A model generated the notes under the pieces. It ran no database searches. It saw only the letters and a list, made by a program, of their open reading frames with translations, and was not told the DNA's origin. A DNA stretch of 64,000 nucleotides from Trypanosoma brucei (taxonomy: Eukaryota), in NCBI GenBank assembly GCA_000002445.1, contig CH464491.1, positions 4,032,001 through 4,096,000 on the forward strand. Direction: 5' to 3'. Shown here piece by piece: positions 10,414 to 40,798 of the stretch; within the stretch, counting starts at the first letter, position 1; each line of letters starts with the position of its first letter. A program made the translations under genes and the position numbers.

Positions 10414-13400
10414 TTATCCTATGAATTTAAGTCTCAACTCGCGCCGTTGCTTCTTCTTGAACGGCCCTTGCCGTCCTTCCGCAGCAGCTTCTACAGTGGT
10501 ACCTTCTTCAACGGGGCCAAATTTAGCCCCGCAACCGCTGGGTGTCACGCCAAATGGATTAGTATAGCCATCAAACTTTTCGTCGCTGCGACCATTCACT
10601 GTTGCGTTATCGCGGGACTTAATCGGTGTGGAAACATCTTCCCCATCTCTACTGGATAATAAAAACGGTAGCTGCGGTAAAGTTGCAGCGTCCAACGTAA
10701 CTGGAGGCCTGACTTCTTGCTGTTTACGATATTTACTAAGAAGTACCGAAGAAGCAATGCCAGCCCCACCATCTACTGAACAGGATGAGCTCAATGGAGT
10801 ATCAGCAGTGGCTGTAAGCTTCTGACCGATACCACAAAGCGTCTTCCTTGAGTCGTTCACAAGGAGGAAACACGCCTCAAAAATGGGAGCGTCACAAACG
10901 TTAAGGGGTAACGACCTCAGCAAGCAGTACTGAAGTTTCTGCAAAGCTACAGTTAACTTTGCAACAGTGAAACCCGTCAGTTTCCCCCAAGCATCGAAGC
11001 GTTGGGAATACCACGAGCAAAGAGACGCCACTACCAAGATATTGTGGCGTAGCGCTTCAACGACCTCAACCAGCCGCCTGCTCTCTTCATCCCATACAGC
11101 TGTAAATGAAATCGCTCTTTGAAGTCCAACACCAACAACATCGCAAAGAGCCTTCAAGGGTCCAAAGGAAAACGGCAACTCGGGCGCAGAGCATTTAGAT
11201 TTCGACGTCACGGGAGAATAAAATTTATCATCAACAGATAATTTCGCACCTGGAACAATACCTAACTTTTTTGTAACATTCTGGATAAACAACATACGCT
11301 GCTGAGAAAGCACAACAGCATCCGATACGTCAAATTCAAACGAACGCAACTTGTCAAGCACGTTACGAACACCAACACGCAGTTGCTTCGCAACAGAACC
11401 ACGACGAAAAGACGACACAGCAGGGCAACCAACCAAAGAGAAAACGCCACGATCAGAACAAGAAAACTGACTAAAAACAGTATTCACCAACTGTTCTTCA
11501 TCCGAACAAAAGGATATTTTCATATCATCCACAAATAAACGACGAGACATATCAACAACATCAACATCAACTTCGCAACAGTACTGTTCCTTCCCTATAT
11601 CCACCAAACGCGTTACGCACATTTCAGACGCCTGTACACGTTCACGCTCATTTTGTAATTCAGTACGAAGTGATTCCACCTCATGGGTGTATCGAACACG
11701 CTGTTCCTCCATAGCTATCTCAAGAGTTGAAAGTTGTTCCCGATGCAATTTCTCCATACCTTCATGGTTCTCTTGTACAACTTTCTCAGACGCCTGTACA
11801 CGTTCACGCTCATTTTGTAATTCAGTACGAAGTGATTCCACCTCATGGGTGTATCGAACACGCTGTTCCTCCATAGCTATCTCAAGAGTTAAAAGTTGTT
11901 CCCGATGCAATTTCTCCATACCTTCATGGTTCTCTTGTACAACTTTCTCAGACGCCTGTACACGTTCACGCTCATTTTGTAATTCAGTACGAAGTGATTC
12001 CACCTCATGGGTGTATCGAACACGCTGTTCCTCCATAGCTATTTCAAGAGCTAAAAGTTGTTCCCGATGCAATTTCTCCATACCTTCATGGTTCTCTTGT
12101 GCAACTTTCTCAGACGCCTGTACACGTTCACGCTCATTTTGTAATTCAGTACGAAGTGATTCCACCTCATGGGTGTATCGAACACGCTGTTCCTCCATAG
12201 CTATTTCAAGAGTTGAAAGTTGTTCCCGATGCAATTTCTCCATACCTTCATGGTTCTCTTGTGCAACTTTCTCAGACGCCTGTACACGTTCACGCTCATT
12301 TTGTAATTCAGTACGAAGTGATTCCACCTCATGGGTGTATCGAACACGCTGTTCCTCCATAGCTATTTCAAGAGTTGAAAGTTGTTCCCGATGCAATTTC
12401 TCCATACCTTCATGGTTCTCTTGTGCAACTTTCTCAGACGCCTGTACACGTTCACGCTCATTTTGTAATTCAGTACGAAGTGATTCCACCTCATGGGTGT
12501 ATCGAACACGCTGTTCCTCCATAGCTATTTCAAGAGCTAAAAGTTGTTCCCGATGCAATTTCTCCATACCTTCATGGTTCTCTTGTGCAACTTTCTCAGA
12601 CGCCTGTACACGTTCACGCTCATTTTGTAATTCAGTACGAAGTGATTCCACCTCATGGGTGTATCGAACACGCTGTTCCTCCATAGCTATTTCAAGAGCT
12701 AAAAGTTGTTCCCGATGCAATTTCTCCATACCTTCATGGTTCTCTTGTGCAACTTTCTCAGACGCCTGTACACGTTCACGCTCATTTTGTAATTCAGTAC
12801 GAAGTGATTCCACCTCATGGGTGTATCGAACACGCTGTTCCTCCATAGCTATTTCAAGAGTTGAAAGTTGTTCCCGATGCAATTTCTCCATACCTTCATG
12901 GTTCTCTTGTGCAACTTTCTCAGACGCCTGTACACGTTCACGCTCATTTTGTAATTCAGTACGAAGTGATTCCACCTCATGGGTGTATCGAACACGCTGT
13001 TCCTCCATGGCTATTTCAAGAGCTAAAAGTTGTTCCCGATGCAATTTCTCCATACCTTCATGGTTCTCTTGTGCAACTTTCTCAGACGCCTGTACACGTT
13101 CACGCTCATTTTGTAATTCAGTACGAAGTGATTCCACCTCATGGGTGTATCGAACACGCTGTTCCTCCATAGCTATTTCAAGAGTTGAAAGTTGTTCCCG
13201 ATGCAATTTCTCCATACCTTCATGGTTCTCTTGTGCAACTTTCTCAGACGCCTGTACACGTTCACGCTCATTTTGTAATTCAGTACGAAGTGATTCCACC
13301 TCATGGGTGTATCGAACACGCTGTTCCTCCATAGCTATTTCAAGAGCTAAAAGTTGTTCCCGATGCAATTTCTCCATACCTTCATGGTTCTCTTGTGCAA

Positions 13401-16400
13401 CTTTCTCAGACGCCTGTACACGTTCACGCTCATTTTGTAATTCAGTACGAAGTGATTCCACCTCATGGGTGTATCGAACACGCTGTTCCTCCATAGCTAT
13501 TTCAAGAGCTAAAAGTTGTTCCCGATGCAATTTCTCCATACCTTCATGGTTCTCTTGTGCAACTTTCTCAGACGCCTGTACACGTTCACGCTCATTTTGT
13601 AATTCAGTACGAAGTGATTCCACCTCATGGGTGTATCGAACACGCTGTTCCTCCATAGCTATTTCAAGAGCTAAAAGTTGTTCCCGATGCAATTTCTCCA
13701 TACCTTCATGGTTCTCTTGTGCAACTTTCTCAGACGCCTGTACACGTTCACGCTCATTTTGTAATTCAGTACGAAGTGATTCCACCTCATGGGTGTATCG
13801 AACACGCTGTTCCTCCATAGCTATTTCAAGAGTTGAAAGTTGTTCCCGATGCAATTTCTCCATACCTTCATGGTTCTCTTGTGCAACTTTCTCAGACGCC
13901 TGTACACGTTCACGCTCATTTTGTAATTCAGTACGAAGTGATTCCACCTCATGGGTGTATCGAACACGCTGTTCCTCCATAGCTATTTCAAGAGCTAAAA
14001 GTTGTTCCCGATGCAATTTCTCCATACCTTCATGGTTCTCTTGTGCAACTTTCTCAGACGCCTGTACACGTTCACGCTCATTTTGTAATTCAGTACGAAG
14101 TGATTCCACCTCATGGGTGTATCGAACACGCTGTTCCTCCATAGCTATTTCAAGAGTTGAAAGTTGTTCCCGATGCAATTTCTCCATACCTTCATGGTTC
14201 TCTTGTGCAACTTTCTCAGACGCCTGTACACGTTCACGCTCATTTTGTAATTCAGTACGAAGTGATTCCACCTCATGGGTGTATCGAACACGCTGTTCCT
14301 CCATAGCTATTTCAAGAGCTAAAAGTTGTTCCCGATGCAATTTCTCCATACCTTCATGGTTCTCTTGTGCAACTTTCTCAGACGCCTGTACACGTTCACG
14401 CTCATTTTGTAATTCAGTACGAAGTGATTCCACCTCATGGGTGTATCGAACACGCTGTTCCTCCATAGCTATTTCAAGAGTTGAAAGTTGTTCCCGATGC
14501 AATTTCTCCATACCTTCATGGTTCTCTTGTGCAACTTTCTCAGACGCCTGTACACGTTCACGCTCATTTTGTAATTCAGTACGAAGTGATTCCACCTCAT
14601 GGGTGTATCGAACACGCTGTTCCTCCATAGCTATTTCAAGAGCTAAAAGTTGTTCCCGATGCAATTTCTCCATACCTTCATGGTTCTCTTGTGCAACTTT
14701 CTCAGACGCCTGTACACGTTCACGCTCATTTTGTAATTCAGTACGAAGTGATTCCACCTCATGGGTGTATCGAACACGCTGTTCCTCCATAGCTATTTCA
14801 AGAGCTAAAAGTTGTTCCCGATGCAATTTCTCCATACCTTCATGGTTCTCTTGTACAACTTTCTCAGACGCCTGTACACGTTCACGCTCATTTTGTAATT
14901 CAGTACGAAGTGATTCCACCTCATGGGTGTATCGAACACGCTGTTCCTCCATAGCTATTTCAAGAGCTAAAAGTTGTTCCCGATGCAATTTCTCCATACC
15001 TTCATGGTTCTCTTGTGCAACTTTCTCAGACGCCTGTACACGTTCACGCTCATTTTGTAATTCAGTACGAAGTGATTCCACCTCATGGGTGTATCGAACA
15101 CGCTGTTCCTCCATAGCTATTTCAAGAGCTAAAAGTTGTTCCCGATGCAATTTCTCCATACCTTCATGGTTCTCTTGTGCAACTTTCTCAGACGCCTGTA
15201 CACGTTCACGCTCATTTTGTAATTCAGTACGAAGTGATTCCACCTCATGGGTGTATCGAACACGCTGTTCCTCCATAGCTATTTCAAGAGCTAAAAGTTG
15301 TTCCCGATGCAATTTCTCCATACCTTCATGGTTCTCTTGTGCAACTTTCTCAGACGCCTGTACACGTTCACGCTCATTTTGTAATTCAGTACGAAGTGAT
15401 TCCACCTCATGGGTGTATCGAACACGCTGTTCCTCCATAGCTATTTCAAGAGCTAAAAGTTGTTCCCGATGCAATTTCTCCATACCTTCATGGTTCTCTT
15501 GTGCAACTTTCTCAGACGCCTGTACACGTTCACGCTCATTTTGTAATTCAGTACGAAGTGATTCCACCTCATGGGTGTATCGAACACGCTGTTCCTCCAT
15601 AGCTATTTCAAGAGCTAAAAGTTGTTCCCGATGCAATTTCTCCATACCTTCATGGTTCTCTTGTGCAACTTTCTCAGACGCCTGTACACGTTCACGCTCA
15701 TTTTGTAATTCAGTACGAAGTGATTCCACCTCATGGGTGTATCGAACACGCTGTTCCTCCATAGCTATTTCAAGAGTTGAAAGTTGTTCCCGATGCAATT
15801 TCTCCATACCTTCATGGTTCTCTTGTGCAACTTTCTCAGACGCCTGTACACGTTCACGCTCATTTTGTAATTCAGTACGAAGTGATTCCACCTCATGGGT
15901 GTATCGAACACGCTGTTCCTCCATAGCTATTTCAAGAGCTAAAAGTTGTTCCCGATGCAATTTCTCCATACCTTCATGGTTCTCTTGTGCAACTTTCTCA
16001 GACGCCTGTACACGTTCACGCTCATTTTGTAATTCAGTACGAAGTGATTCCACCTCATGGGTGTATCGAACACGCTGTTCCTCCATAGCTATTTCAAGAG
16101 CTAAAAGTTGTTCCCGATGCAATTTCTCCATACCTTCATGGTTCTCTTGTGCAACTTTCTCAGACGCCTGTACACGTTCACGCTCATTTTGTAATTCAGT
16201 ACGAAGTGATTCCACCTCATGGGTGTATCGAACACGCTGTTCCTCCATAGCTATTTCAAGAGTTGAAAGTTTTTCTTTATATTTTTTTTGTTCATTTTGT
16301 TTTTTCGTATTTAAGTTTTCAATGTGTTTATGGTGTTGCTGCTCTTTTGCCTTAATGATGTTTGAAAGTTCCTGTTCCCTTTCGCACTGTGCCGCTAATG

Positions 16401-17295
16401 TTAGTTTCATTGCTATTATTTGTTCTTGGTGGCTTGTTTGAATATCTGCGAGAGTTAGAGTGCCTTGTTTGACTTCTGCGGCTTCCGTATTTTGTATCAT
16501 GTCTCTTAGTGTTTGATGCAGTATCTTTATGTTTTCTCGTAAAGCTGCCTGTTCTTCTTTGTCTATATTATTTTCTTTTATTTTTATTTCTCGTAAACGT
16601 CGTTCGTACTCTTCTTTGGTTTTTGTCATTTCTATTTCCTTTTCTTGTAGTGTGAGTTGAGATTGTTGTAGCTGTGTTGTGGATCGTTGAAGTTTCCTTT
16701 CATGTTCGTGTAGTGCTGCCTTTAATGCACTATTTTCCTGTTGTATTCTTTCGTGTTCATTTTGCAGGATTGCCGTTAGTTGTGAATTTTCTTCATAGTT
16801 TTGAAGCTTTTGTCGGACGCTTTCTAGTTCCTTTACCGTGCTATCGCGCTCACACTTCGTTTTGTGGAATTCTTCTCGCAAGTGTTCAAGGTTAACATCT
16901 GTGTCTTTATAAGTAGTAAAACCCTGCTGCATTGTGTGCGGAGAAAGCGTGTGATCCATTGCGTCTGTCTCGCTAGGTGCTGAGCTGCCAGCGGTGCTCT
17001 CTGGAGCAAGTCCCTCTCGGCGCTTGTAATAATAAATTATGGTACGCCACAGCTTAGCGATGCGGTTTGCCGTTGCAGCTGCTTTGGGTGAGCCGTTAGG
17101 TAACGAAAGGTACGCTGTCAGTGATGTCAGCGCCATGTAAATATCGGCCATGGCTTCTGGTAAGTCATGCGCAGCGCTGCTTGTGAGTTTGTACTGTGCA
17201 TCCCTAAGCGAATTTCCAATTCGCGCTTCTATAGTCCTTCGACTGCCTTCGATATCGCTCGTGTTTTCTATTAACTGAGCGTCCTTGAAACTCAT
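10414..17295 (-). CDS. Giant charged repeat protein (2293 aa) with about 28.6 tandem 54-aa repeats; coiled-coil/cytoskeletal-type repetitive antigen candidate.
   Basis: Unique N-terminal domain (about 345 aa). Then repeats of LEIAMEEQRVRYTHEVESLRTELQNERERVQASEKVAQENHEGMEKLHREQLLA. Then a unique 404-aa C-terminal domain. Single uninterrupted minus-strand ORF. Confidence 0.8.
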   Translation of the reverse strand: MSFKDAQLIENTSDIEGSRRTIEARIGNSLRDAQYKLTSSAAHDLPEAMADIYMALTSLTAYLSLPNGSPKAAATANRIAKLWRTIIYYYKRREGLAPESTAGSSAPSETDAMDHTLSPHTMQQGFTTYKDTDVNLEHLREEFHKTKCERDSTVKELESVRQKLQNYEENSQLTAILQNEHERIQQENSALKAALHEHERKLQRSTTQLQQSQLTLQEKEIEMTKTKEEYERRLREIKIKENNIDKEEQAALRENIKILHQTLRDMIQNTEAAEVKQGTLTLADIQTSHQEQIIAMKLTLAAQCEREQELSNIIKAKEQQHHKHIENLNTKKQNEQKKYKEKLSTLEIAMEEQRVRYTHEVESLRTELQNERERVQASEKVAQENHEGMEKLHREQLLALEIAMEEQRVRYTHEVESLRTELQNERERVQASEKVAQENHEGMEKLHREQLLALEIAMEEQRVRYTHEVESLRTELQNERERVQASEKVAQENHEGMEKLHREQLSTLEIAMEEQRVRYTHEVESLRTELQNERERVQASEKVAQENHEGMEKLHREQLLALEIAMEEQRVRYTHEVESLRTELQNERERVQASEKVAQENHEGMEKLHREQLLALEIAMEEQRVRYTHEVESLRTELQNERERVQASEKVAQENHEGMEKLHREQLLALEIAMEEQRVRYTHEVESLRTELQNERERVQASEKVAQENHEGMEKLHREQLLALEIAMEEQRVRYTHEVESLRTELQNERERVQASEKVAQENHEGMEKLHREQLLALEIAMEEQRVRYTHEVESLRTELQNERERVQASEKVVQENHEGMEKLHREQLLALEIAMEEQRVRYTHEVESLRTELQNERERVQASEKVAQENHEGMEKLHREQLLALEIAMEEQRVRYTHEVESLRTELQNERERVQASEKVAQENHEGMEKLHREQLSTLEIAMEEQRVRYTHEVESLRTELQNERERVQASEKVAQENHEGMEKLHREQLLALEIAMEEQRVRYTHEVESLRTELQNERERVQASEKVAQENHEGMEKLHREQLSTLEIAMEEQRVRYTHEVESLRTELQNERERVQASEKVAQENHEGMEKLHREQLLALEIAMEEQRVRYTHEVESLRTELQNERERVQASEKVAQENHEGMEKLHREQLSTLEIAMEEQRVRYTHEVESLRTELQNERERVQASEKVAQENHEGMEKLHREQLLALEIAMEEQRVRYTHEVESLRTELQNERERVQASEKVAQENHEGMEKLHREQLLALEIAMEEQRVRYTHEVESLRTELQNERERVQASEKVAQENHEGMEKLHREQLLALEIAMEEQRVRYTHEVESLRTELQNERERVQASEKVAQENHEGMEKLHREQLSTLEIAMEEQRVRYTHEVESLRTELQNERERVQASEKVAQENHEGMEKLHREQLLALEIAMEEQRVRYTHEVESLRTELQNERERVQASEKVAQENHEGMEKLHREQLSTLEIAMEEQRVRYTHEVESLRTELQNERERVQASEKVAQENHEGMEKLHREQLLALEIAMEEQRVRYTHEVESLRTELQNERERVQASEKVAQENHEGMEKLHREQLLALEIAMEEQRVRYTHEVESLRTELQNERERVQASEKVAQENHEGMEKLHREQLSTLEIAMEEQRVRYTHEVESLRTELQNERERVQASEKVAQENHEGMEKLHREQLSTLEIAMEEQRVRYTHEVESLRTELQNERERVQASEKVAQENHEGMEKLHREQLLALEIAMEEQRVRYTHEVESLRTELQNERERVQASEKVVQENHEGMEKLHREQLLTLEIAMEEQRVRYTHEVESLRTELQNERERVQASEKVVQENHEGMEKLHREQLSTLEIAMEEQRVRYTHEVESLRTELQNERERVQASEMCVTRLVDIGKEQYCCEVDVDVVDMSRRLFVDDMKISFCSDEEQLVNTVFSQFSCSDRGVFSLVGCPAVSSFRRGSVAKQLRVGVRNVLDKLRSFEFDVSDAVVLSQQRMLFIQNVTKKLGIVPGAKLSVDDKFYSPVTSKSKCSAPELPFSFGPLKALCDVVGVGLQRAISFTAVWDEESRRLVEVVEALRHNILVVASLCSWYSQRFDAWGKLTGFTVAKLTVALQKLQYCLLRSLPLNVCDAPIFEACFLLVNDSRKTLCGIGQKLTATADTPLSSSCSVDGGAGIASSVLLSKYRKQQEVRPPVTLDAATLPQLPFLLSSRDGEDVSTPIKSRDNATVNGRSDEKFDGYTNPFGVTPSGCGAKFGPVEEGTTVEAAAEGRQGPFKKKQRRELRLKFIG
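11625..16260. repeat. 162-bp tandem repeat array, about 28.6 near-identical copies (coding, inside the 2293-aa gene).
   Basis: Period measured directly: the motif gtatcgaacacg ends at 11700 and again at 11862, 162 bp apart. Units differ at only 2 to 3 positions (agttgaaag/agctaaaag, ttgtgcaac/ttgtacaac, ccatagctat/ccatggctat). Confidence 0.9.
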
Positions 17296-24136: not shown

Positions 24137-26293
24137 CTACCAGTCATCCCACTCCTCCCCCTCATCATCAACTAGTATATCTGCCTTGGCTTTCACAATG
24201 CGTGATTTACCAACAACAGAGCCCGCATCCTGCCTATCAGAAGGAGCAGCTACACTCTCCAAGCGAGCAACAATACTAGGATTTTCGGAGTGGTCACTCT
24301 CGTCTTCATCAACGAAACTAACTGAGGTAGAAACTATATACTTTTGGTAGACAGTAAGATATTCATCTGCTTGCTTCCGGCAAACGATGCTCCTACAAAC
24401 TCCTTCCTCATGCTCAAGAACCGCAAAAAGCTTAGAAAAATGGGGTGAGTGCCCACAGCATGCTTCCTCCTCAGCTCTGAGACGTGCTTCCTCTTCAGCT
24501 CTGAGACGTGCTTCCTCCTCAGCTCTCAGACGTGCTTCCTCCTCAGCTCTGAGACGTGCTTCCTCTTCAGCTCTCAGACGTGCTTCCTCTTCAGCTCTCA
24601 GACGTGCTTCCTCTTCAGCTCTCAGACGTGCTTCCTCTTCAGCTCTCAGACGTGCTTCCTCTTCAGCTCTCAGACGTGCTTCCTCTTCAGCTCTCAGACG
24701 TGCTTCCTCTTCAGCTCTGAGACGTGCTTCCTCCTCAGCTCTGAGACGTGCTTCCTCTTCAGCTCTCAGACGTGCTTCCTCTTCAGCTCTCAGACGTGCT
24801 TCCTCCTCAGCTCTGAGACGTGCTTCCTCTTCAGCTCTGAGACGTGCTTCCTCTTCAGCTCTGAGACGTGCTTCCTCTTCAGCTCTCAGACGTGCTTCCT
24901 CTTCAGCTCTCAGACGTGCTTCCTCTTCAGCTCTGAGACGTGCTTCCTCTTCAGCTCTCAGACGTGCTTCCTCCTCAGCTCTGAGACGTGCTTCCTCTTC
25001 AGCTCTGAGACGTGCTTCCTCTTCAGCTCTCAGACGTGCTTCCTCTTCAGCTCTGAGACGTGCTTCCTCTTCAGCTCTGAGACGTGCTTCCTCCTCAGCT
25101 CTCAGACGTGCTTCCTCTTCAGCTCTCAGACGTGCTTCCTCTTCAGCTCTCAGACGTGCTTCCTCTTCAGCTCTCAGACGTGCTTCCTCTTCAGCTCTCA
25201 GACGTGCTTCCTCTTCAGCTCTGAGACGTGCTTCCTCCTCAGCTCTGAGACGTGCTTCCTCTTCAGCTCTCAGACGTGCTTCCTCTTCAGCTCTCAGACG
25301 TGCTTCCTCTTCAGCTCTCAGGTGTGTCTCTTCCTCGGAGTTATCTGACGTCTTGCAAATCCTAATAAGATGCTCTTTACCATCGTGTTGTCTCATTTTC
25401 CCTTTCTTAGCAGGTGTGTCACTTTCGTTAATTCGAGGATGGAGTTTGCCGCTGCTGGTGCTTATTTTATTTGTGCATTCATTTTGTACGTATTCTCCTG
25501 TGTGAACTCTGCTTTCCTGTGTGCATTGAGCGTGTAGCAAGCTACTGTTTTTGTTTCCTGTGGGTTGAGCCTCTGATCCTATAATGCGATGCTTCGCGGT
25601 CTTATCGTTATTCTGGTCGTGCTGATGTGCGAACTCGCTAGGGATGTCGTTGCCCACTTGGTTAATAAGGTCGTACTTTTCCTCTCTCAACAGCGTTCCA
25701 ATCTTTTTTACAGTTCCCATATCCGCTGTACATGTTTCCCAAATGCTGTTTATGCGCTGTTGAAGATGAACGATGTTCTCTACATTTATCAACCCAGGTT
25801 GCACTTTGTACTCCTCGAAGATCAATTCACACTTGCGGAGACGCTGATCCACGGCATCTTCCCACCAGGTGTAGACGCTGAGAAAGTCACTTGTATGCGT
25901 TATTTTTTCCTCTAGGCTTAATTGAAGGAGGAACTGCGCCTCTCCGTGGATACGTTTGGAAGTGAGAGTTATAAGACTGACAGACTCCGTAATGTATCGA
26001 AACAATTCTTCTGGTTCCAGAGATGTACGCTTTTCTTCCGCAAGACATAAAAGTGGTGGCGGTTTTTCATATTCGCCAGCCAGTTCGGCACTGCCAGCGC
26101 CAGAGTCGAGTACAACAGGGGATGATGTGAGTTTGTTCATCCAACCGACGACGTGCTCCTCGAGGAGGGAAAACCCCGAGCTCATTGCTGCACTTCGTTG
26201 CTGTTTCTGTTCAGGTGCAGCGGCGAGCTCGTCTCGCGTTGGGGCAACCGTGCGCCGAGCCGCGTTCTTTATGTCTATTAAAAAGTTCCACAT
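24137..26293 (-). CDS. Repeat protein with about 36 tandem EEEARLRA octads (candidate ER/K single alpha-helix spacer) flanked by unique N- and C-terminal domains.
   Basis: 718-aa ORF. The central part is (EEEARLRA)n encoded by a 24-bp repeat. About 330 aa of unique N-terminal sequence and about 100 aa of unique C-terminal sequence. Confidence 0.7.
24455..25325. repeat. 24-bp tandem repeat (gcttcctcttcagctctcagacgt and variants), about 36 copies, coding.
   Basis: Visible periodicity. Units vary only at two positions (ctc/ctt and cag/gag on the plus strand). On the minus strand these are synonymous Leu (ctg/ctc) and Glu (gaa/gag) codon changes. The translated repeat is invariant. Confidence 0.9.
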
Positions 26294-33106: not shown

Positions 33107-34483
33107 CTAATAGACGTATGGGATCAAGCGATAACGAACTATTCTATGGAATTTGTGCATATCTTCTGCACCATACTTTTCACGCATCTGCTCTTCGTCC
33201 CTCAATTGGCGGTGAATCAAAAGCAGAGCAAAATACACTGGCTGAAAGTATGGCAGTGGTTCCGTAAACCCCGTAAGTGCTGACCATGAAAGGGTCATAA
33301 GCCAATCCCCTACATAATTCGGATGGCGGCACACGCCCCAGTAGCCCGACACAATCAGCGATTTGCCGCTGGACGTATGCATAACCTTCAGCGCCGCATT
33401 CGCTGGATCTTTTGGATTTTGTCGAAAACGACTTTTTTGATTGTTTGAGCCACGAAACACAGCGTAGCCAACAAGCGCCACCGCAGCGCAAATGCCTACG
33501 TGCATGTAGCTCAGCTGCGAGGCATGATAAGCCAGGAACTTTGCTTTCAGTGTATAAGTGAAAGGTACCCACGCCAAATCGCCGAAGCACAGCATAAACC
33601 CAAAACCATCATGCACGATGTCCATCATGGTGAGGTTTCCCTCTTCATAAAGAAGCCCGTCCAACACATAGAAAGACTCTAGCAGGGCAACCACAATAAT
33701 GCTGGGCGAGCATGTACCGACCTCCATCGCTTTTGCCACAAATGCCCAATTCAGGACGCTCCAACCAATGAGACCGGGACGCAGTTCACACATAAACTTC
33801 CAGTCAAGCGAACCCGTACGTGGATTGAGCTCACGGCCAACCCAGAAATCGTATAAGTAGTTTCCAGTGTTTCCTCCGGGGGAAAACGACACCTGAGAAG
33901 AGCGGAAGGAAGCGACGTATAGCACGATGCTCATAAAAACAGAAATGATGATGGCAGCCACCATGAGTGGCATAAACATGTCAGCCAGCCAGGCTAGACG
34001 AATCACATCAGCGTAGTGCATACTACCCAAAATAGCATGTACAAGTGTGAACACATGCAACGCGTTGATATTGTACGTGAGACATGTTCCATCAGAGAGT
34101 TTCACACCCTTCACTTGCTTTCCAACCGGAGTAATGTAAAGAAGTGCATGAAATGCCATCCACAACAACTCGACACCAAGTGCCAGTACCAATCGCGGCA
34201 CTCCCACATCCAATGCCAACAATATCATTGCGGGAAGGTCCCATACATTATGCACACTACACGAATTTTCTGAGCACAAGACATTGAGACCAATAACTGT
34301 GAGCGGCAGAAGCACCACCATCCCAAGTGCTCCCAGAGGGCCTCCCCACTCGTAGGAGCGGTTTTTATTCGTCACTGGTGTTTTAGTTCTGGGAGTGACG
34401 GGACTCTTTTTAGTCCTCCCGGGCGTCCGAGGTGCAGGCGATGCGGAGCGAGATTTTGTACCCTTGCGGCTCCGTGGCGGCAT
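33107..34483 (-). CDS. Sterol reductase of the ERG4/ERG24 family (sterol C-14 or C-24(28) reductase) with a basic SP/TP-rich N-terminal extension.
   Basis: C-terminal family signature GYWGVCRHPNYVGDWLMTLSWSALTGF...LLIHRQLRDEEQMREKYGAEDMHKFHRIVRYRLIPYVY. Multiple transmembrane segments. N-terminus MPPRSRKGTKSRSASPAPRTPGRTKKSPVTPRTKTPVTNKNRS. Confidence 0.8.
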   Translation of the reverse strand: MPPRSRKGTKSRSASPAPRTPGRTKKSPVTPRTKTPVTNKNRSYEWGGPLGALGMVVLLPLTVIGLNVLCSENSCSVHNVWDLPAMILLALDVGVPRLVLALGVELLWMAFHALLYITPVGKQVKGVKLSDGTCLTYNINALHVFTLVHAILGSMHYADVIRLAWLADMFMPLMVAAIIISVFMSIVLYVASFRSSQVSFSPGGNTGNYLYDFWVGRELNPRTGSLDWKFMCELRPGLIGWSVLNWAFVAKAMEVGTCSPSIIVVALLESFYVLDGLLYEEGNLTMMDIVHDGFGFMLCFGDLAWVPFTYTLKAKFLAYHASQLSYMHVGICAAVALVGYAVFRGSNNQKSRFRQNPKDPANAALKVMHTSSGKSLIVSGYWGVCRHPNYVGDWLMTLSWSALTGFTEPLPYFQPVYFALLLIHRQLRDEEQMREKYGAEDMHKFHRIVRYRLIPYVY

Positions 34484-34793
34484 TTGATGCTAATCCTTGC
34501 GTTACTTTTTCTGCAACGAATAACAAACAATATGGGGAGAAATGTATTTTTTTTCTTTTAAATGTCCAGTTTGATACTCTGTCAGTGTGTTCCTACGTAG
34601 TACAGTCGTTTTCCTTTTAAATAAACGGGCTCGGTACCTATGACTAAGTCAAAATAGTGGGGTGATTAAGCGGTACGGAATATTACAAACCTTAGCGAGG
34701 AACAAACCCATTCGTGGGATTATACCAGCGCATCCATCACTTTTCCTTCCGTCCTTTTGGGTGGATAAAGCAGACAAGGAGATGCTCCTCTCA

Positions 34794-37592: not shown

Positions 37593-38519
37593 TTAGAAAC
37601 GATAGACGTGATCTTTTGTATAACCCATATCTCCCAAGATGCCACCGACGTCAGGGGCGTTGTTAAGTACTGTTCCCGTTGGTTGGTACGCAAGACCACC
37701 GCTCATTGCCTTGAGCACATTGGGCGAAGAGCCAACCACCTTCGTCATCATTGGGTCCGGGCCACAAACTAACACGAGGTTATTATCCGCTGGTTCAGGC
37801 ATAGTTTCTTTTATCATCTGCGGCGTGATGTATCCAATATAACCATTATAGTCACTTTGCGGATTCTCCAACATATCCACGGTGTAATGAACACTAAGGC
37901 GGTCAGCATGTTTTTTTGCCGTGCCGTCTAGCATTCCTTTGAGGAGGATTTTGTTCTCGGACCTGTTGGCAAATAGAAGTGAAAGTTTGGTCTTGTCGCC
38001 AGGGGTGTCGAGCGAAGCGTTCATGAATTGTAGGAGCGGACATATTCCAGTGCCACCACCAATCAGTCCCACCTCAGCCCATCGGTTCTTCTTGTATTGC
38101 AACTTGTATTGAACAACCCGAAAGAGAAGCGTGTCTCCAACATTCATGGAGAACAGATGTTCCGTGAAGCGACCACGGGGTTGTTTCTTAACGAGAAGGT
38201 CAAAGTAACCCATTGTTCCATTGGGGGTTATGGGCGTGTATGACCGCATCGGCTGGTCCACAATGTTGGCACCCTCCTTAAGACAGGCTTGTAGAGTACT
38301 GCATGGTACAAGATCAAAAGTGTCATCGACACGAGGCAGAAGGAAGCGGAAGATGGCGACATCTTCGGCTAAGTTGATAACCTCACCCAATGCAAGTGGT
38401 TTGAACTTTGTGTCAAGCACGGCGTTTGTGCGACACTCAGCTGTATGTTGCTGCGAAGATACACGTGCTTTAAAAGCCGCACCAAGAATGGAGGCAGCAG
38501 TAAAAGTAAGGAATTTCAT
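37593..38519 (-). CDS. NADH-cytochrome b5 reductase (FAD/NAD-binding ferredoxin reductase family).
   Basis: FAD-binding RSYTPI, NAD-binding GGTGICP and C-terminal CGPDPMM. N-terminal membrane anchor. 308 aa. Confidence 0.8.
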   Translation of the reverse strand: MKFLTFTAASILGAAFKARVSSQQHTAECRTNAVLDTKFKPLALGEVINLAEDVAIFRFLLPRVDDTFDLVPCSTLQACLKEGANIVDQPMRSYTPITPNGTMGYFDLLVKKQPRGRFTEHLFSMNVGDTLLFRVVQYKLQYKKNRWAEVGLIGGGTGICPLLQFMNASLDTPGDKTKLSLLFANRSENKILLKGMLDGTAKKHADRLSVHYTVDMLENPQSDYNGYIGYITPQMIKETMPEPADNNLVLVCGPDPMMTKVVGSSPNVLKAMSGGLAYQPTGTVLNNAPDVGGILGDMGYTKDHVYRF

Positions 38520-39178: not shown

Positions 39179-40798
39179 CTAAGCGATCGTTGACTTCCCT
39201 AGCAACAAATCAACCTCTCGCTCCAACTCGGATGCCTGAGCTGCGCACACTTCCATCGCACTCAACTGACAGTCGATGAGGCCGACAAACTTGGCCAGAT
39301 CATCCGACTGGCGAAGGTGCCGTACAGAACCATTGTGTTGCCTGACACATTGCTGCAGTCGAAGTTTTAAAGTTTCTACTTCATCAAAAAGGTTAATTAC
39401 AGCCGTGTAAGTTTCCTCACGTGCCTCGTCCACACTGTTGAATGTTGGTCGTACCTGCGCGAAGATAGGCTGAACGGCATCTTCAAAGCGCTGCAACATT
39501 GTTCCGATTGCAGCCTGTTTGTTCTTGAGCTCTATGAGTGTTTGTCGTGTGACGTCGGCATTGGCAATAGCCTCTTCAAGGTGGGACGAGTGTGAAAGAA
39601 TCTCATTCCCACGCTCGATTATCTGCCGGTCACGGAGCATCATGAGCTGTGACAATTCCGAAAAGTCACGGTAATCTTTAGAGAAAGCTTTATCAAACTG
39701 CGCCAGTATGGTTGAAAGCATCTTCCCCCTGAGCTCTAACGAAGCTTGCTTACCTGAAATTGCAGTGGGGTCGCCCGCTCCTACTGTTCCAGTAGCTCCA
39801 GCGCTTTGATTTCCTCCAGTGACACCAGCGCCTAGGGAGGGACCCAACCCTGCTCCTCCCGCGCCGGCCGTTGCTGGCGGGGCGTTGCCACCCGTTTCAG
39901 ATGGTTTTGTGATGGAGCTAAAGGGACCGCCTCCAGTGGTGGCCGCACCAGCAGTAGCATTAGTTGAGGCAGGGTTAGTTGGTGCGGTAGCGCCGGCCCC
40001 AAACCCAGCGAAAGGCGTAGGCGCTGCACTCGGGTTGCTTCCAGAAGCTGGTGGTGTAGCACCGAAACCGCCAAATGCAGCTGGTGCACCGGCTTTGACT
40101 GTGTCACCTGAGGGGGGGTTTGTAACCATGGTCGTTGCCGCTGGAACCGCAGTAGCGGTGCCCGCTGTTGGATTTGTTCCGGTGTTTCCAGGATTGGATG
40201 CACTCCCGTCAAAGGTGGTGTTTGCCGGGGTCGCCCCACTTGCCGGTGTTTGTCCAACCGCACTGGTTGCGGCGCCAAACCCACCTGTGCTAGGTGCAGT
40301 TGCGGTAGTCCCTGTAGTTGAAGTTTGGCCGAATCCGGCACCAAAAGGATTAAGGGTTGTCTTTGCACCACTGCCGAAGCCACTGAACCCTGAGGTGGGA
40401 GCAGCGGACGTGCTAGGCGCCGCTGCAGCGCCGACCCCTGTTGGCACAACAGAGTTGCCACCTTCGCCCTTACCCGGAGTCGCTCCAAAACCGAGGACGG
40501 TTTGCCCAAGTACAGGTGCCGGCTGTGTGGCACTGCTTGTTGATTGCGCTCCGACGGCAAATCCTCCTGTGGAGGGACCACTCCCGAAACCGCCCATCCC
40601 TGCTGCCGGAGCTGAGCCTCCGGACTGGTTCGCGGTTTGGCCGAAAGGGTTTGTTACTCCTGCTACGGACTCGGTGTTACTCTGTCCAAAGGATCCGAAA
40701 CCTAGCACGGGGGCAGCAGCAGTAGCGTTTGTGTCAACTGCCGGCTGTCCAAATCCCCCACCAGATGGCGCTCTTCCTCGCACAGCAAAGCCCTTCAT
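39179..40798 (-). CDS. FG-repeat nucleoporin with a C-terminal coiled-coil (Nup62/Nsp1-type), possibly Nup53a-like.
   Basis: About 400 aa of Gly/Ala/Thr/Pro-rich sequence with many GFG/FGQ/FGA/FGS motifs, then a structured helical C-terminal domain. Very GC-rich, so the antisense strand is also open. Confidence 0.75.
   Translation of the reverse strand: MKGFAVRGRAPSGGGFGQPAVDTNATAAAPVLGFGSFGQSNTESVAGVTNPFGQTANQSGGSAPAAGMGGFGSGPSTGGFAVGAQSTSSATQPAPVLGQTVLGFGATPGKGEGGNSVVPTGVGAAAAPSTSAAPTSGFSGFGSGAKTTLNPFGAGFGQTSTTGTTATAPSTGGFGAATSAVGQTPASGATPANTTFDGSASNPGNTGTNPTAGTATAVPAATTMVTNPPSGDTVKAGAPAAFGGFGATPPASGSNPSAAPTPFAGFGAGATAPTNPASTNATAGAATTGGGPFSSITKPSETGGNAPPATAGAGGAGLGPSLGAGVTGGNQSAGATGTVGAGDPTAISGKQASLELRGKMLSTILAQFDKAFSKDYRDFSELSQLMMLRDRQIIERGNEILSHSSHLEEAIANADVTRQTLIELKNKQAAIGTMLQRFEDAVQPIFAQVRPTFNSVDEAREETYTAVINLFDEVETLKLRLQQCVRQHNGSVRHLRQSDDLAKFVGLIDCQLSAMEVCAAQASELEREVDLLLGKSTIA

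What the first reader, a model, noticed from the sequence alone, without database searches (positions are those of the whole stretch)
33107..34483. ERG4/ERG24 sterol reductase with a basic SP/TP-rich N-terminal extension resembling the lamin B receptor nucleoplasmic domain
The first about 45 residues (MPPRSRKGTKSRSASPAPRTPGRTKKSPVTPRTKTPVTNKNRS) are highly basic and contain four S/T-P sites in RS-like context. This organisation parallels the N-terminal chromatin- and lamin-binding, CDK-phosphorylated region that distinguishes metazoan LBR from plain sterol C14-reductase (TM7SF2). Kinetoplastids lack lamins and use NUP-1/NUP-2 instead. A sterol reductase with a basic, phospho-regulated nucleoplasmic tail would be a candidate inner-nuclear-membrane anchor in a lamin-free lineage. 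Alternatively the tail is only a regulatory or ER-retention appendage.
Basis: partly seen in the sequence, partly recalled or inferred. Interest (0 to 1): 0.5.

Follow-up and report, generated by a model that had tools for sequence, protein, structure and literature searches.

The report
Trypanosome sterol reductase with LBR-like tail
This is the Trypanosoma brucei sterol C-14 reductase gene, whose protein carries a short, very basic, serine/threonine/proline-rich tail found only in the genus Trypanosoma; published data already place the protein at the nuclear envelope, so it is a testable but unproven candidate for a lamin-B-receptor-like membrane anchor in a lineage without lamins.

Summary
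The ORF is on the minus strand (34483 to 33107). The tail is 43 residues. It has five S/T-P sites, not four.

The gene is Tb927.11.15530, the only ERG4/ERG24-family enzyme reported for T. brucei, and it groups with delta-14 reductases. The start codon is secure.

The tail has net charge +13 and no acidic residue, and the model predicts it to be disordered. Nine Trypanosoma sequences carry such a tail and share a core S-R-S-x-[S/T]-P. Leishmaniinae, Phytomonas, bodonid-like relatives and most other eukaryotes lack it. Its likeness to the LBR RS region is compositional only, so it is convergent rather than homologous. There is no Tudor domain.

Three published datasets agree on location. TrypTag scores it 'endoplasmic reticulum, nuclear envelope[strong]'. 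It passes the thresholds of the purified-nuclei proteome. It belongs to a nuclear-envelope protein cohort.

Nobody has shown inner-membrane residence, phosphorylation or chromatin binding. No paper I could search discusses the tail.

Similar basic RS tails occur on C-14 reductases of Capsaspora and at least one fungus, so the architecture recurs.

Verdict: known enzyme, real lineage-specific tail, plausible untested LBR-like role. Interest is moderate.

The parts
33107..34483 (-). Complete CDS of sterol C-14 reductase (Tb927.11.15530), 458 aa plus stop
   Evidence: ORF found. It is 99% identical to the T. equiperdum 'C-14 sterol reductase, putative'. The TrypTag C-terminal tagging primer for this ID encodes the end of the ORF.
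34355..34483 (-). N-terminal tail, residues 1-43: polybasic (+13, no D/E), rich in RS and S/T-P, predicted disordered, facing cytoplasm or nucleoplasm
   Evidence: Composition. AlphaFold2 pLDDT is below 50 for nearly all of residues 1-36 (all but residues 13 and 18), and there is no secondary structure before residue 48. Orientation is inferred from homology to LBR, whose N-terminus is nucleoplasmic.
34436..34453 (-). Residues 11-16, S-R-S-A-S-P: the conserved core S-R-S-x-[S/T]-P of the Trypanosoma tails, a candidate proline-directed or RS-kinase phosphorylation site
   Evidence: The motif SRSx[ST]P, or RSR[ST]P, occurs in all eight aligned Trypanosoma tails and in T. vivax. Order-specific similarity to the T. 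vivax, T. rangeli and T. cruzi tails gives z = 3.7, 2.4 and 2.2. Phosphorylation itself is inferred.
34415..34426 (-). Residues 20-23, T-P-G-R: the only full CDK-type consensus site (S/T-P-x-K/R) in the T. brucei tail
   Evidence: Regex count. [quoted passage not shown] The parallel is an analogy only.
34337..34354 (-). Residues 44-49, YEWGGP: conserved junction motif (E45, G48 and P49 invariant, Y44 nearly so) marking the start of the conserved reductase body
   Evidence: Alignments A1 and A2. The Pfam domain begins at residue 42.
34277..34342 (-). Predicted first transmembrane helix (residues 48-69)
   Evidence: AlphaFold2 model: helix 48-69, pLDDT 79-95.
33110..34360 (-). ERG4/ERG24 sterol reductase domain (residues 42-458), with the fold of the bacterial delta-14 reductase MaSR1
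   Evidence: Pfam PF01222 at E = 1.9e-129. PDB sequence matches are 9l5r and 4quv, both delta(14)-sterol reductases. Foldseek best match is 4quv, E = 1e-23, TM-score 0.87.
33818..33865 (-). Sterol reductase signature 1, GNYLYDFWVGRELNPR (residues 207-222)
   Evidence: Regex match. The PROSITE pattern was recalled from memory.
33170..33220 (-). Sterol reductase signature-2 region, LIHRQLRDEEQMREKYG (residues 422-438), where the pattern's Cys is Met
   Evidence: The Cys-to-Met change is shared by all eight kinetoplastid-clade sequences checked, so it is a lineage trait and not a sign of decay.
34511..34542 (-). Pyrimidine-rich tract ending in AG, 29 nt upstream of the ATG: the probable trans-splice acceptor region
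   Evidence: Sequence and scan. Its role is inferred from the general architecture of trypanosome genes; it was not checked against spliced-leader mapping data.
34490..34492 (-). In-frame TAG three codons upstream of the ATG, which excludes a longer N-terminus
   Evidence: checked by hand.

Best explanation
The ORF encodes the T. brucei sterol C-14 reductase, a multi-pass enzyme of the ER and nuclear envelope that reduces the delta-14 double bond left after CYP51 demethylation.

The stem lineage of Trypanosoma inserted about 20-25 residues near the N-terminus. The result is a 43-residue disordered tail with net charge +13 and no acidic residues, rich in RS and S/T-P, projecting from TM1 into the cytoplasm or nucleoplasm.

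The most likely mechanism has four steps. (1) The protein diffuses in the ER and outer-nuclear-membrane continuum. (2) Its small extraluminal domain (about 5 kDa) passes the peripheral channels of the pore. (3) At the inner membrane the polybasic tail binds chromatin, nucleic acid or the NUP-1/NUP-2 lamina electrostatically, which concentrates part of the enzyme pool at the nuclear envelope (diffusion-retention). (4) Phosphorylation of the conserved S-R-S-x-[S/T]-P core and the other S/T-P sites would lower the charge and loosen that binding.

This would make it a minimal, convergent analogue of the RS region of the metazoan lamin B receptor, not a homologue.

Shown here or in the literature: enzyme family and fold, reality and genus-wide conservation of the tail, predicted disorder, and nuclear-envelope enrichment of the C-terminally tagged protein.

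Inferred: topology, inner-membrane residence, the causal role of the tail, phosphorylation, and the binding partner.
For: Identity:
- Pfam ERG4_ERG24, E = 1.9e-129.
- The best PDB matches are delta-14 reductases.
- Every named protein among the top 120 hits is a C-14 reductase or a near-synonym (LBR, generic ERG4/ERG24), apart from a few generic labels such as 'hypothetical protein'; none is named as ERG4 or DHCR7.
- It is reported as the orthologue of mouse Tm7sf2.

Tail:
- Start codon secure.
- Residues 1-36 have pLDDT below 50, apart from residues 13 and 18.
- Nine Trypanosoma sequences have a 39-44 aa tail with net charge +5 to +15 and a conserved SRSx[ST]P core.
- Tail identity averages 38% against 75% for the enzyme body. 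Composition is kept while sequence drifts, as expected for a disordered region selected for charge.
- The tail is absent outside the genus.

Location:
- TrypTag: 'endoplasmic reticulum, nuclear envelope[strong]'.
- Nuclear proteome: enrichment score 2.34, p = 0.02, against thresholds of 0.7 and 0.05. Only 7 of 96 lipid-metabolism proteins pass.
- Member of the 89-protein nuclear-envelope membrane cohort.

Precedent:
- In LBR, a basic RS segment plus one TM helix is required for retention at the inner membrane by diffusion-retention. Phosphorylation by SRPK1 and cdk1 releases oligomers and chromatin.

Recurrence:
- Basic RS/S-T-P tails occur on C-14 reductases of Capsaspora, a mucoromycote fungus and others.
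- One kinetoplastid-like homologue carries a Myb/SANT domain at the same position.
Against: - Light microscopy and cell fractionation cannot separate the inner membrane from the outer membrane or perinuclear ER.
- The fatty-acid elongases ELO1-3 are also enriched with nuclei, and the authors attribute that to co-purifying perinuclear ER.
- The nuclear-proteome value rests on 3 peptides, 2 of 4 nuclear replicates, and imputed whole-cell values.
- 'ER, nuclear envelope' is a common TrypTag annotation. Only the [strong] modifier is distinctive, and I could not count how rare it is.
- No tail has the KRxR or K[KR]x[KR] motif that is enriched in trypanosome nuclear proteins.
- No phosphorylation evidence was found.
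- The gene ID and 'sterol reductase' were not found in the one supplementary text file held for the NUP-1/NUP-2 lamina study.
- Trypanosomes have closed mitosis, so the main mitotic rationale for phosphorylating LBR does not transfer directly.
- Leishmania manages without the tail.
- Similarity to LBR is compositional only.
Confidence: 0.4

Rival explanations
1. The tail is an ER-resident regulatory appendage with no inner-membrane role. One version: an arginine-based (RxR) COPI retrieval or retention signal that keeps the enzyme in the ER and nuclear-envelope system. Another version: a phospho-regulated handle that controls enzyme turnover or activity. The nuclear-rim signal would then simply reflect perinuclear ER.
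For: - An R-x-R motif lies in the first 12 residues of 8 of 9 Trypanosoma tails.
- TrypTag reports ER as well as nuclear envelope.
- Other perinuclear ER lipid enzymes (ELO1-3) also co-purify with nuclei.
- The transcript is cell-cycle regulated in procyclic forms, peaking in late G1, which suggests the enzyme level is controlled.
Against: - T. vivax lacks R-x-R in its first 12 residues.
- A retrieval signal needs only 3-4 residues. It does not explain a 43-aa tail kept at +5 to +15 with almost no acidic residues and a conserved SRSx[ST]P core.
- Most ER lipid enzymes, for example all the GPI-biosynthesis enzymes, are not enriched with nuclei.
- The Leishmania orthologue presumably stays in the ER without the tail.
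Confidence: 0.3
2. The tail is a weakly constrained low-complexity expansion with no specific function. Nuclear-envelope enrichment would be a property of the membrane-embedded enzyme itself: C-14 reductases may sit in perinuclear ER in many eukaryotes.
For: - Tail identity within the genus is only 38%, against 75% for the body.
- ERG24 has the highest dN/dS of the sterol pathway in African trypanosomes (0.142; pathway mean 0.080, SD 0.028).
- Mammalian Tm7sf2, which has no LBR-type N-terminal domain (established knowledge), is also listed as a nuclear-envelope protein.
- In LBR, TM segments contribute to targeting.
Against: - Length (39-44 aa), basic charge, near absence of acidic residues and the SRSx[ST]P core persist across nine Trypanosoma sequences, including the divergent T. 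vivax and the T. cruzi clade.
- Neutral drift would not keep the tails almost free of acidic residues (0-3 D/E each) and net basic in every species.
- Order-specific similarity to the T. vivax tail is significant (z = 3.7).
Confidence: 0.22
3. The tail is an artefact or a different kind of signal. Either the true start is a downstream Met, or the basic hydroxyl-rich N-terminus is a mitochondrial presequence. One Leptomonas orthologue is annotated 'putative mitochondrial'.
For: - The composition (R/K/S/T-rich, no acidic residues) superficially resembles a presequence.
- The Leptomonas pyrrhocoris orthologue carries the name 'putative mitochondrial C-14 sterol reductase'.
Against: - The next Met is M55, inside TM1 and after the invariant YEWGGP.
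- The frame is conserved in nine species, and there is an in-frame stop 3 codons upstream.
- Eight prolines in 43 residues make an amphipathic helix improbable, and the model shows no helix.
- The C-terminally tagged protein, with its native N-terminus, is in the ER and nuclear envelope, not the mitochondrion.
Confidence: 0.03

Closest known systems
Sterol delta-14 reductase (yeast ERG24, mammalian TM7SF2/DHCR14, plant FACKEL, bacterial MaSR1; Pfam PF01222)
   Same: - Full-length domain match.
- 45% identity to the reductase part of vertebrate LBR.
- Best PDB matches are delta-14 reductases.
- Predicted fold superimposes on MaSR1 (TM-score 0.87).
- Signature 1 is intact.
- Reported as the orthologue of mouse Tm7sf2.
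   Different: - A 43-aa polybasic RS/S-T-P tail, where most family members have 10-22 neutral-to-mildly-basic residues ending in LNP[KR]TT.
- The Cys of signature 2 is Met in all kinetoplastids.
- Enzyme activity has not been tested here.
Lamin B receptor (LBR) of metazoa
   Same: - A C-14 reductase membrane body preceded by a basic, RS-containing tail carrying proline-directed sites.
- Nuclear-envelope enrichment of the protein.
- The core SRSx[ST]P and the T-P-G-R site recall the RSRSPGR SRPK1-docking and cdk1-site region of LBR.
   Different: - No Tudor domain (compare Esox LBR).
- No second globular domain.
- Tail of 43 aa against about 200 aa.
- No sequence-order similarity beyond composition, and absent from sister lineages, so an independent origin.
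- Trypanosomes have no lamin B.
- Closed mitosis.
- Inner-membrane residence and chromatin binding are not shown.
RS-tailed C-14 reductases without a Tudor domain (Capsaspora owczarzaki XP_004343132.1; mucoromycote Halteromyces radiatus XP_051405275.1; unnamed fungal-like P0152; snail proteins P0094 and P0099)
   Same: A disordered-looking, strongly basic N-terminal extension rich in RS and/or S/T-P, placed directly before the conserved reductase body, with no Pfam domain in the extension. The P0152 tail (MPPRTPRKRSATPTRKRAPSRSATPKRSR...) has net charge +13 and five S/T-P sites, very close to the T. brucei values.
   Different: - Different lineages and no alignable sequence, so independent gains are more parsimonious.
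- None has been characterised, so they give no functional information.
- Capsaspora's tail has long perfect RS repeats, whereas T. brucei's is S/T-P-rich with scattered RS.
Trypanosome lamina proteins NUP-1 and NUP-2
   Same: They occupy the same compartment (the nuclear periphery). How this lamina is attached to the membrane is unclear: a 2023 review suggests the nuclear pore complex may facilitate its anchoring and does not contain the words 'transmembrane', 'LBR' or 'sterol'.
   Different: They are soluble coiled-coil proteins with no relation in sequence. The gene ID and 'sterol reductase' were not found in the one held supplementary file of the lamina study.

Membership tests
ERG4/ERG24 sterol reductase family (Pfam PF01222) | Full-length match to the family profile above the curated threshold | tested here: met
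   432.7 bits against a cut-off of 27, E = 1.9e-129, residues 42-458 covering profile positions 3-432 of 432.
ERG4/ERG24 sterol reductase family (Pfam PF01222) | Multi-pass membrane fold of the MaSR1 type | tested here: met
   AlphaFold2 model with pTM 0.84. Foldseek best match 4quv, E = 1e-23, target-normalised TM-score 0.87.
ERG4/ERG24 sterol reductase family (Pfam PF01222) | Sterol reductase signature 1: G-x2-[LIVF]-[YH]-D-x-[FYWI]-x-G-x2-L-N-P-R (pattern recalled from memory) | tested here: met
   GNYLYDFWVGRELNPR at residues 207-222.
ERG4/ERG24 sterol reductase family (Pfam PF01222) | Sterol reductase signature 2: [LIVM]2-[HR]-R-x2-R-D-x3-C-x2-K-Y-G (pattern recalled from memory) | tested here: not met
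   LIHRQLRDEEQMREKYG has Met in place of Cys. All eight kinetoplastid-clade sequences checked share the change, while the metazoan sequences keep Cys. It is a lineage-wide variant of one pattern position and not grounds to exclude the protein from the family.
Delta-14 sterol reductase subfamily (ERG24 / TM7SF2 / LBR body) as opposed to ERG4 (C-24(28)) or DHCR7 | Closest relatives are delta-14 reductases rather than ERG4 or DHCR7 | tested here: met
   - None of the named top-120 hits is called ERG4 or DHCR7; apart from a few generic labels ('hypothetical protein', 'unnamed protein product'), they are named C-14 reductase, delta(14)-sterol reductase, ERG24, generic ERG4/ERG24 or LBR.
- Both PDB matches are delta(14)-sterol reductases.
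- Published reciprocal-best-hit orthology to mouse Tm7sf2.
- T. brucei is reported to lack ERG4.
- No tree including ERG4 or DHCR7 outgroups was built.
Delta-14 sterol reductase subfamily (ERG24 / TM7SF2 / LBR body) as opposed to ERG4 (C-24(28)) or DHCR7 | NADPH-dependent reduction of the C14=C15 bond of sterol intermediates | not testable with these tools
   Needs an enzyme assay, or sterol profiling of a knock-down.
Lamin B receptor (LBR) | N-terminal Tudor domain (Pfam PF09465 LBR_tudor) | tested here: not met
   The window protein has no Tudor hit. The same scan finds it in Esox LBR at E = 5.7e-31 and in 13 of 44 extended homologues.
Lamin B receptor (LBR) | RS region: four or five consecutive RS dipeptides with the RSRSPGR docking and cdk1 site | tested here: inconclusive
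   T. brucei has five RS/SR dipeptides, but they are not in one run (RSRK...KSRS). It also has S-P and T-P-G-R sites. Other trypanosomes have RSRS[KR]TP[RH]R. The composition is similar, but no order-specific similarity exists (z = 0.1-0.4).
Lamin B receptor (LBR) | Second globular nucleoplasmic domain (the HP1-binding region) | tested here: not met
   Only 43 residues precede the reductase body, and the model predicts them to be disordered: no secondary structure before residue 48, pLDDT below 50 through residue 36.
Lamin B receptor (LBR) | C-terminal C-14 reductase membrane body | tested here: met
   Identity to Esox LBR is 45% over 99% of the query.
Lamin B receptor (LBR) | Residence in the inner nuclear membrane | not testable with these tools
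   Published data give nuclear-envelope enrichment only. Inner and outer membrane are not resolved.
Lamin B receptor (LBR) | Binding to lamin B and to heterochromatin | not testable with these tools
   Trypanosomes have no lamins. Binding to NUP-1/NUP-2, DNA or histones needs experiments.
Lamin B receptor (LBR) | Common descent of the N-terminal region with metazoan LBR | tested here: not met
   The tail is absent from Leishmaniinae, Phytomonas, bodonid-like relatives and most other eukaryotes, and the shuffle test is negative. It is therefore convergent.

The most novel reading that the evidence does not exclude
[quoted passage not shown] A 43-residue polybasic tail, tunable by phosphorylation, would tether the membrane to chromatin or to the NUP-1/NUP-2 lamina. 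That would make it the first integral-membrane anchor identified for a lamin-free nuclear periphery. Together with the RS-tailed reductases of Capsaspora and some fungi, and a Myb-fused one in a kinetoplastid-like organism, this would mean that C-14 reductase has been recruited repeatedly as a platform for binding chromatin at the nuclear envelope.
Probability: 0.25. Interest if true: 0.75.

Novelty: new variant of a known kind. Interest (0 to 1): 0.5.

Why it matters
How the trypanosome nuclear periphery is fastened to the membrane is unclear. That periphery silences VSG and procyclin genes and positions telomeres. Reviews state that no lamina-associated membrane protein of the animal type is detected in trypanosomatids, and that LBR is confined to animals.

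This protein has already been seen at the nuclear envelope three times. It was treated as 'just the conserved reductase domain', and the genus-specific tail was not discussed in any paper I could search.

If the tail drives retention at the inner membrane, it gives a simple genetic handle on membrane-chromatin attachment in a lamin-free eukaryote: a 43-residue deletion at a single-copy gene. It would also be a second, independent example of the puzzling fusion between a sterol enzyme and a chromatin tether, which bears on why LBR has that architecture at all.

If the tail is only an ER-retention or turnover signal, the finding is a modest note on a drug-pathway enzyme.

Tried and rejected
- **Plus-strand reading of the given coordinates.** It gives stops only; the gene is on the minus strand.
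- **Homology of the tail to LBR.** Rejected by the shuffle test and by phylogenetic distribution.
- **Downstream start codon or mitochondrial presequence.** Rejected.
- **Phosphoproteome look-up.**
  - The gene ID is absent from the held, partly truncated supplements of the cell-cycle and DNA-damage phosphoproteomes.
  - Urbaniak 2013 is not held.
  - Nett 2009 and a 2026 procyclic study have no held supplements.
  - The result is uninformative in any case, because tryptic peptides of the tail are at most 7 aa.
- **Interaction with the lamina.** Neither the gene ID nor 'sterol reductase' occurs in the single held supplement of the NUP-1/NUP-2 study.
- **Second ERG4/ERG24 paralogue.** Not pursued by sequence, because T. 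brucei is reported to lack ERG4. I had no kinetoplastid ERG4 sequence with which to examine the T. cruzi paralogue's N-terminus.
- **Classical NLS.** No K[KR]x[KR], KRxR or consistent bipartite pattern in the tails.
- **Rarity of the TrypTag modifier 'nuclear envelope[strong]'.** The search tool cannot match brackets and the table is truncated.
- **Is the Myb-ERG24 fusion conserved?** It is a singleton; its closest relatives lack the Myb domain.
- **Gene neighbourhood as functional evidence.** Rejected. All the large ORFs (those reading from an ATG, plus several GTG-start ones) lie on one strand as one polycistron. In trypanosomes, gene order within such a unit is not taken as evidence of a functional link (established knowledge). 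The FG-nucleoporin gene 5 kb upstream is therefore treated as coincidence.
Full report
**1. The observation**

The stated coordinates translate to stops on the plus strand. The ORF lies on the minus strand, with ATG at 34483 and the stop at 33107-33109, and encodes 458 aa.

- The tail has 6 K and 7 R, no D or E (net +13), 13 S/T and 8 P.
- It has five S/T-P sites (S15, T20, S27, T30, T35), not four.
- One is a full CDK-type site (T20-P-G-R). There are five RS/SR dipeptides.
- Among 16,628 43-residue windows from all 38 ORFs of at least 150 aa in the 64-kb window, this segment has both the highest charge and the highest S/T-P count.

The start codon is secure. An in-frame TAG lies three codons upstream. 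No ATG occurs in the 228 nt upstream. A pyrimidine-rich tract ends in AG 29 nt upstream, as expected for a trans-splice acceptor. The next Met (M55) lies inside the first membrane helix, after the invariant YEWGGP.

**2. What the gene is**

- Pfam ERG4_ERG24 covers residues 42-458 (E = 1.9e-129).
- The only PDB sequence matches are two delta(14)-sterol reductases.
- An AlphaFold2 model (pTM 0.84) superimposes on the bacterial delta-14 reductase MaSR1, 4quv (E = 1e-23, TM-score 0.87).
- The closest database protein (99% identity) is the T. equiperdum 'C-14 sterol reductase, putative'. None of the named proteins among the top 120 hits is called ERG4 or DHCR7; apart from a few generic labels, they are C-14 reductases or LBRs.
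- The gene is Tb927.11.15530, formerly Tb11.01.7170.
- A survey of the sterol pathway reports that T. brucei lacks ERG4 and ERG5. There is therefore no second paralogue to compare within this species. The same survey finds that ERG24 has the highest dN/dS of the pathway in African trypanosomes.
- Signature 1 is intact. In signature 2 the Cys is Met in all eight kinetoplastid-clade sequences checked.

**3. Anatomy and distribution of the tail**

The model gives pLDDT below 50 for nearly all of residues 1-36 (all but residues 13 and 18) and no secondary structure before the first helix at residues 48-69.

In most homologues the segment before the conserved motif is 10-22 residues long, has net charge 0 to +5, and ends in LNP[KR]TT. 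This holds for the Leishmaniinae, Phytomonas, many unnamed kinetoplastid-like sequences and diverse other eukaryotes.

Every Trypanosoma sequence instead has 39-44 residues with net charge +5 to +15. The set comprises the T. brucei group, T. melophagium, T. theileri, T. grayi, T. conorhini, T. rangeli, T. cruzi marinkellei and an unnamed one.

T. vivax looked like an exception, but only because its annotation starts at an internal Met. The genomic ORF (L002:1743-3119) is 458 aa and begins MPLRTQKGSLSRSTSPKSPSR....

The tails share a core S-R-S-x-[S/T]-P, at residues 11-16 in most of the tails. The T. brucei tail aligns with T. vivax, T. rangeli and T. cruzi better than shuffled versions do (z = 3.7, 2.4 and 2.2).

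Tail identity within the genus averages 38%, against 75% for the enzyme body. The sequence drifts while length, charge and the core motif are kept. This is the usual signature of a disordered region selected for composition.

The tail is thus a gain of about 20-25 residues in the Trypanosoma stem lineage. It is not a general kinetoplastid feature.

**4. Relation to LBR**

According to the LBR review:

- LBR has a Tudor domain, then an RS region with four or five RS dipeptides and the conserved RSRSPGR peptide that docks SRPK1.
- A second globular domain follows, then the reductase body.
- The basic segment plus a TM helix is needed for retention at the inner membrane by diffusion-retention.
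- Phosphorylation dissolves oligomers and chromatin binding.

The trypanosome protein shares the reductase body and an RS-plus-proline-directed-site tail. It has no Tudor domain (positive control) and no room for a second domain. Its similarity to fish and snail LBR N-termini is no better than that of shuffled tails (z = 0.1-0.4). It therefore works, at most, like the RS region of LBR. It is not a member of the LBR family.

**5. Experimental evidence already published**

- TrypTag C-terminal mNeonGreen tagging gives 'endoplasmic reticulum, nuclear envelope[strong]', not faint. N-terminal tagging was attempted without a line being obtained.
- In the proteome of purified procyclic nuclei the protein has an enrichment score of 2.34 and p = 0.0199, next to NUP82 and MEX67 in the ranking. 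The thresholds are 0.7 and 0.05. The value rests on 3 peptides, 2 of 4 nuclear replicates, and imputed whole-cell values.
- Only 7 of 96 lipid-metabolism proteins are in that proteome. The authors attribute three of them, ELO1-3, to co-purifying perinuclear ER.
- Padilla-Mejia et al. 2021 include the protein in their 89 nuclear-envelope membrane proteins. They note it as the single overlap with the metazoan cohort (Tm7sf2), but conclude that LBR is conserved only through its reductase domain.
- Koreny and Field 2016 state that none of the lamina-associated cohort is detected in trypanosomatids.
- A 2023 review contains no occurrence of 'transmembrane', 'LBR' or 'sterol' and suggests only that the pore complex may help anchor the lamina.

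No searchable paper discusses the tail. Inner-membrane residence is not resolved.

**6. Mechanism**

Best-supported reading (confidence about 0.4):

1. The enzyme diffuses through the ER and outer membrane.
2. Its small tail passes the pore membrane.
3. The +13 tail binds chromatin, nucleic acid or the lamina at the inner face. This concentrates the enzyme at the envelope.
4. Phosphorylation at the conserved SRSx[S/T]P core and the other S/T-P sites weakens the binding.

Rivals:

- An arginine-based ER retrieval signal or a turnover handle, with the rim signal reflecting perinuclear ER (about 0.3).
- A weakly constrained low-complexity insert, with localisation set by the membrane body (about 0.2).
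- A start-codon or presequence artefact (about 0.03; rejected).

Points against the favoured model:

- No classical NLS-like motif occurs in any tail.
- No phosphorylation data exist. The look-ups were negative or impossible, and the tail's tryptic peptides are too short to be seen.
- The protein was not found in the one held supplementary file of the lamina study.
- Mitosis is closed in trypanosomes.
- Leishmania lacks the tail.

**7. Wider pattern found on the way**

A library-wide HMMER search shows many C-14 reductases with long N-terminal extensions. Of 44 examined, 13 have the LBR Tudor domain.

At least 13 others have basic RS-rich tails and no obvious Tudor motif (a simple pattern check). 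Pfam finds no domain in the extensions of Capsaspora and Halteromyces. They include:

- Capsaspora owczarzaki: 20 RS/SR dipeptides and 8 S/T-P sites.
- The mucoromycote Halteromyces radiatus.
- A nematomorph, Gordionus.
- An unnamed fungal-like protein whose tail (MPPRTPRKRSATPTRKRAPSRSATPKRSR...) matches the T. brucei tail in charge and S/T-P count.

One kinetoplastid-like homologue, on a single Logan contig, carries a Myb/SANT domain (E = 3.5e-14) in the same position. Its closest relatives do not.

The 'basic tail plus C-14 reductase' architecture is therefore recurrent. This makes the trypanosome case less unique. It makes the general idea more credible: that this enzyme is repeatedly recruited at the nuclear envelope.

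**8. Verdict**

The gene and its enzyme class are already known, and so is its nuclear-envelope signal. The Trypanosoma-specific tail with its conserved SRSx[S/T]P core, read as a convergent minimal LBR-type module, appears not to have been described. It is directly testable. I rate it a new variant of a known kind, with interest 0.5.

Noticed in passing
L001:902-2407 (protein P0051; Logan contig from SRR22387785): A kinetoplastid-like C-14 reductase (54% identical to the window protein) has a Myb/SANT DNA-binding domain (Pfam E = 3.5e-14, residues 16-57) fused in one continuous 501-aa ORF directly before the reductase body. This is the same position as the Tudor domain of LBR. It is seen on one contig only, and its closest relatives (62-65% identity) lack the domain.
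   Followed up: partly
Proteins P0145 (Capsaspora owczarzaki XP_004343132.1), P0150 (Halteromyces radiatus), P0198 (Gordionus sp.), P0152, P0147, P0209 (unnamed): C-14 sterol reductases outside the deuterostomes carry strongly basic N-terminal tails rich in RS and S/T-P, and a simple motif check finds no Tudor-like sequence in them. Capsaspora's tail has 20 RS/SR dipeptides. An RS tail on this enzyme is therefore recurrent, and in Holozoa it may predate the Tudor fusion. Published surveys restrict LBR to animals or deuterostomes.
   Followed up: partly
L002:1743-3119 (T. vivax, GCA_019425475.1 contig NLFJ01000797.1): The annotated T. vivax C-14 reductase (372 aa, P0020) starts at an internal Met. 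The genomic ORF extends 86 codons upstream to give a 458-aa protein with the basic tail and TM1. The annotation is truncated.
   Followed up: yes
window 39179-40798 (-): A 539-aa ORF with many FG/GFG repeats and a C-terminal Nsp1_C domain (E = 4.3e-06), that is, a Nup62/Nsp1-type FG nucleoporin. It lies 5 kb upstream in the same polycistron as the reductase. I treat this as coincidence, because gene order within a trypanosome polycistron is not taken as evidence of a functional link (established knowledge).
   Followed up: partly
window 10414-17295 (-); repeats at 11624-16275: A 2293-aa ORF containing 28.7 copies of a 162-bp (54-aa) tandem repeat at 99% identity. The repeats are rich in E, Q, R and K and look coiled-coil-like. 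This region accounts for the low-GC, strongly skewed stretch at 12-16 kb.
   Followed up: no
window 24137-26293 (-); repeats at 24461-25321: A 718-aa ORF with about 36 copies of a 24-bp repeat encoding EEEARLRA. The spurious long ORFs on the opposite strand are by-products of the repeat.
   Followed up: no
window 37593-38519 (-): A 308-aa ORF with FAD_binding_6 and NAD_binding_1 domains. The domain pair is that of NADH-cytochrome b5 reductases (my reading; the scan gives only the two domain names), a class of ER electron donor used by sterol and fatty-acid desaturases. It lies 3 kb upstream of the sterol reductase.
   Followed up: no
window 33170-33220 (-) and kinetoplastid homologues: The Cys of sterol reductase signature 2 is Met in all eight kinetoplastid-clade sequences checked, while the metazoan sequences keep Cys. 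The functional meaning is unknown.
   Followed up: partly
Proteins P0094 and P0099 (land snails Bradybaena and Candidula): LBR-sized C-14 reductases (571 and 576 aa) with RS/CDK-site-rich N-terminal regions of about 160 aa but no Pfam Tudor hit. They may be protostome LBR-like proteins without a recognisable Tudor domain.
   Followed up: no
window 1-64000: All the large ORFs that look like genes (those starting at an ATG, and several that start at GTG) lie on the minus strand, so the window sits within a single polycistronic transcription unit. The plus-strand ORFs of at least 200 aa overlap minus-strand genes or repeats.
   Followed up: no
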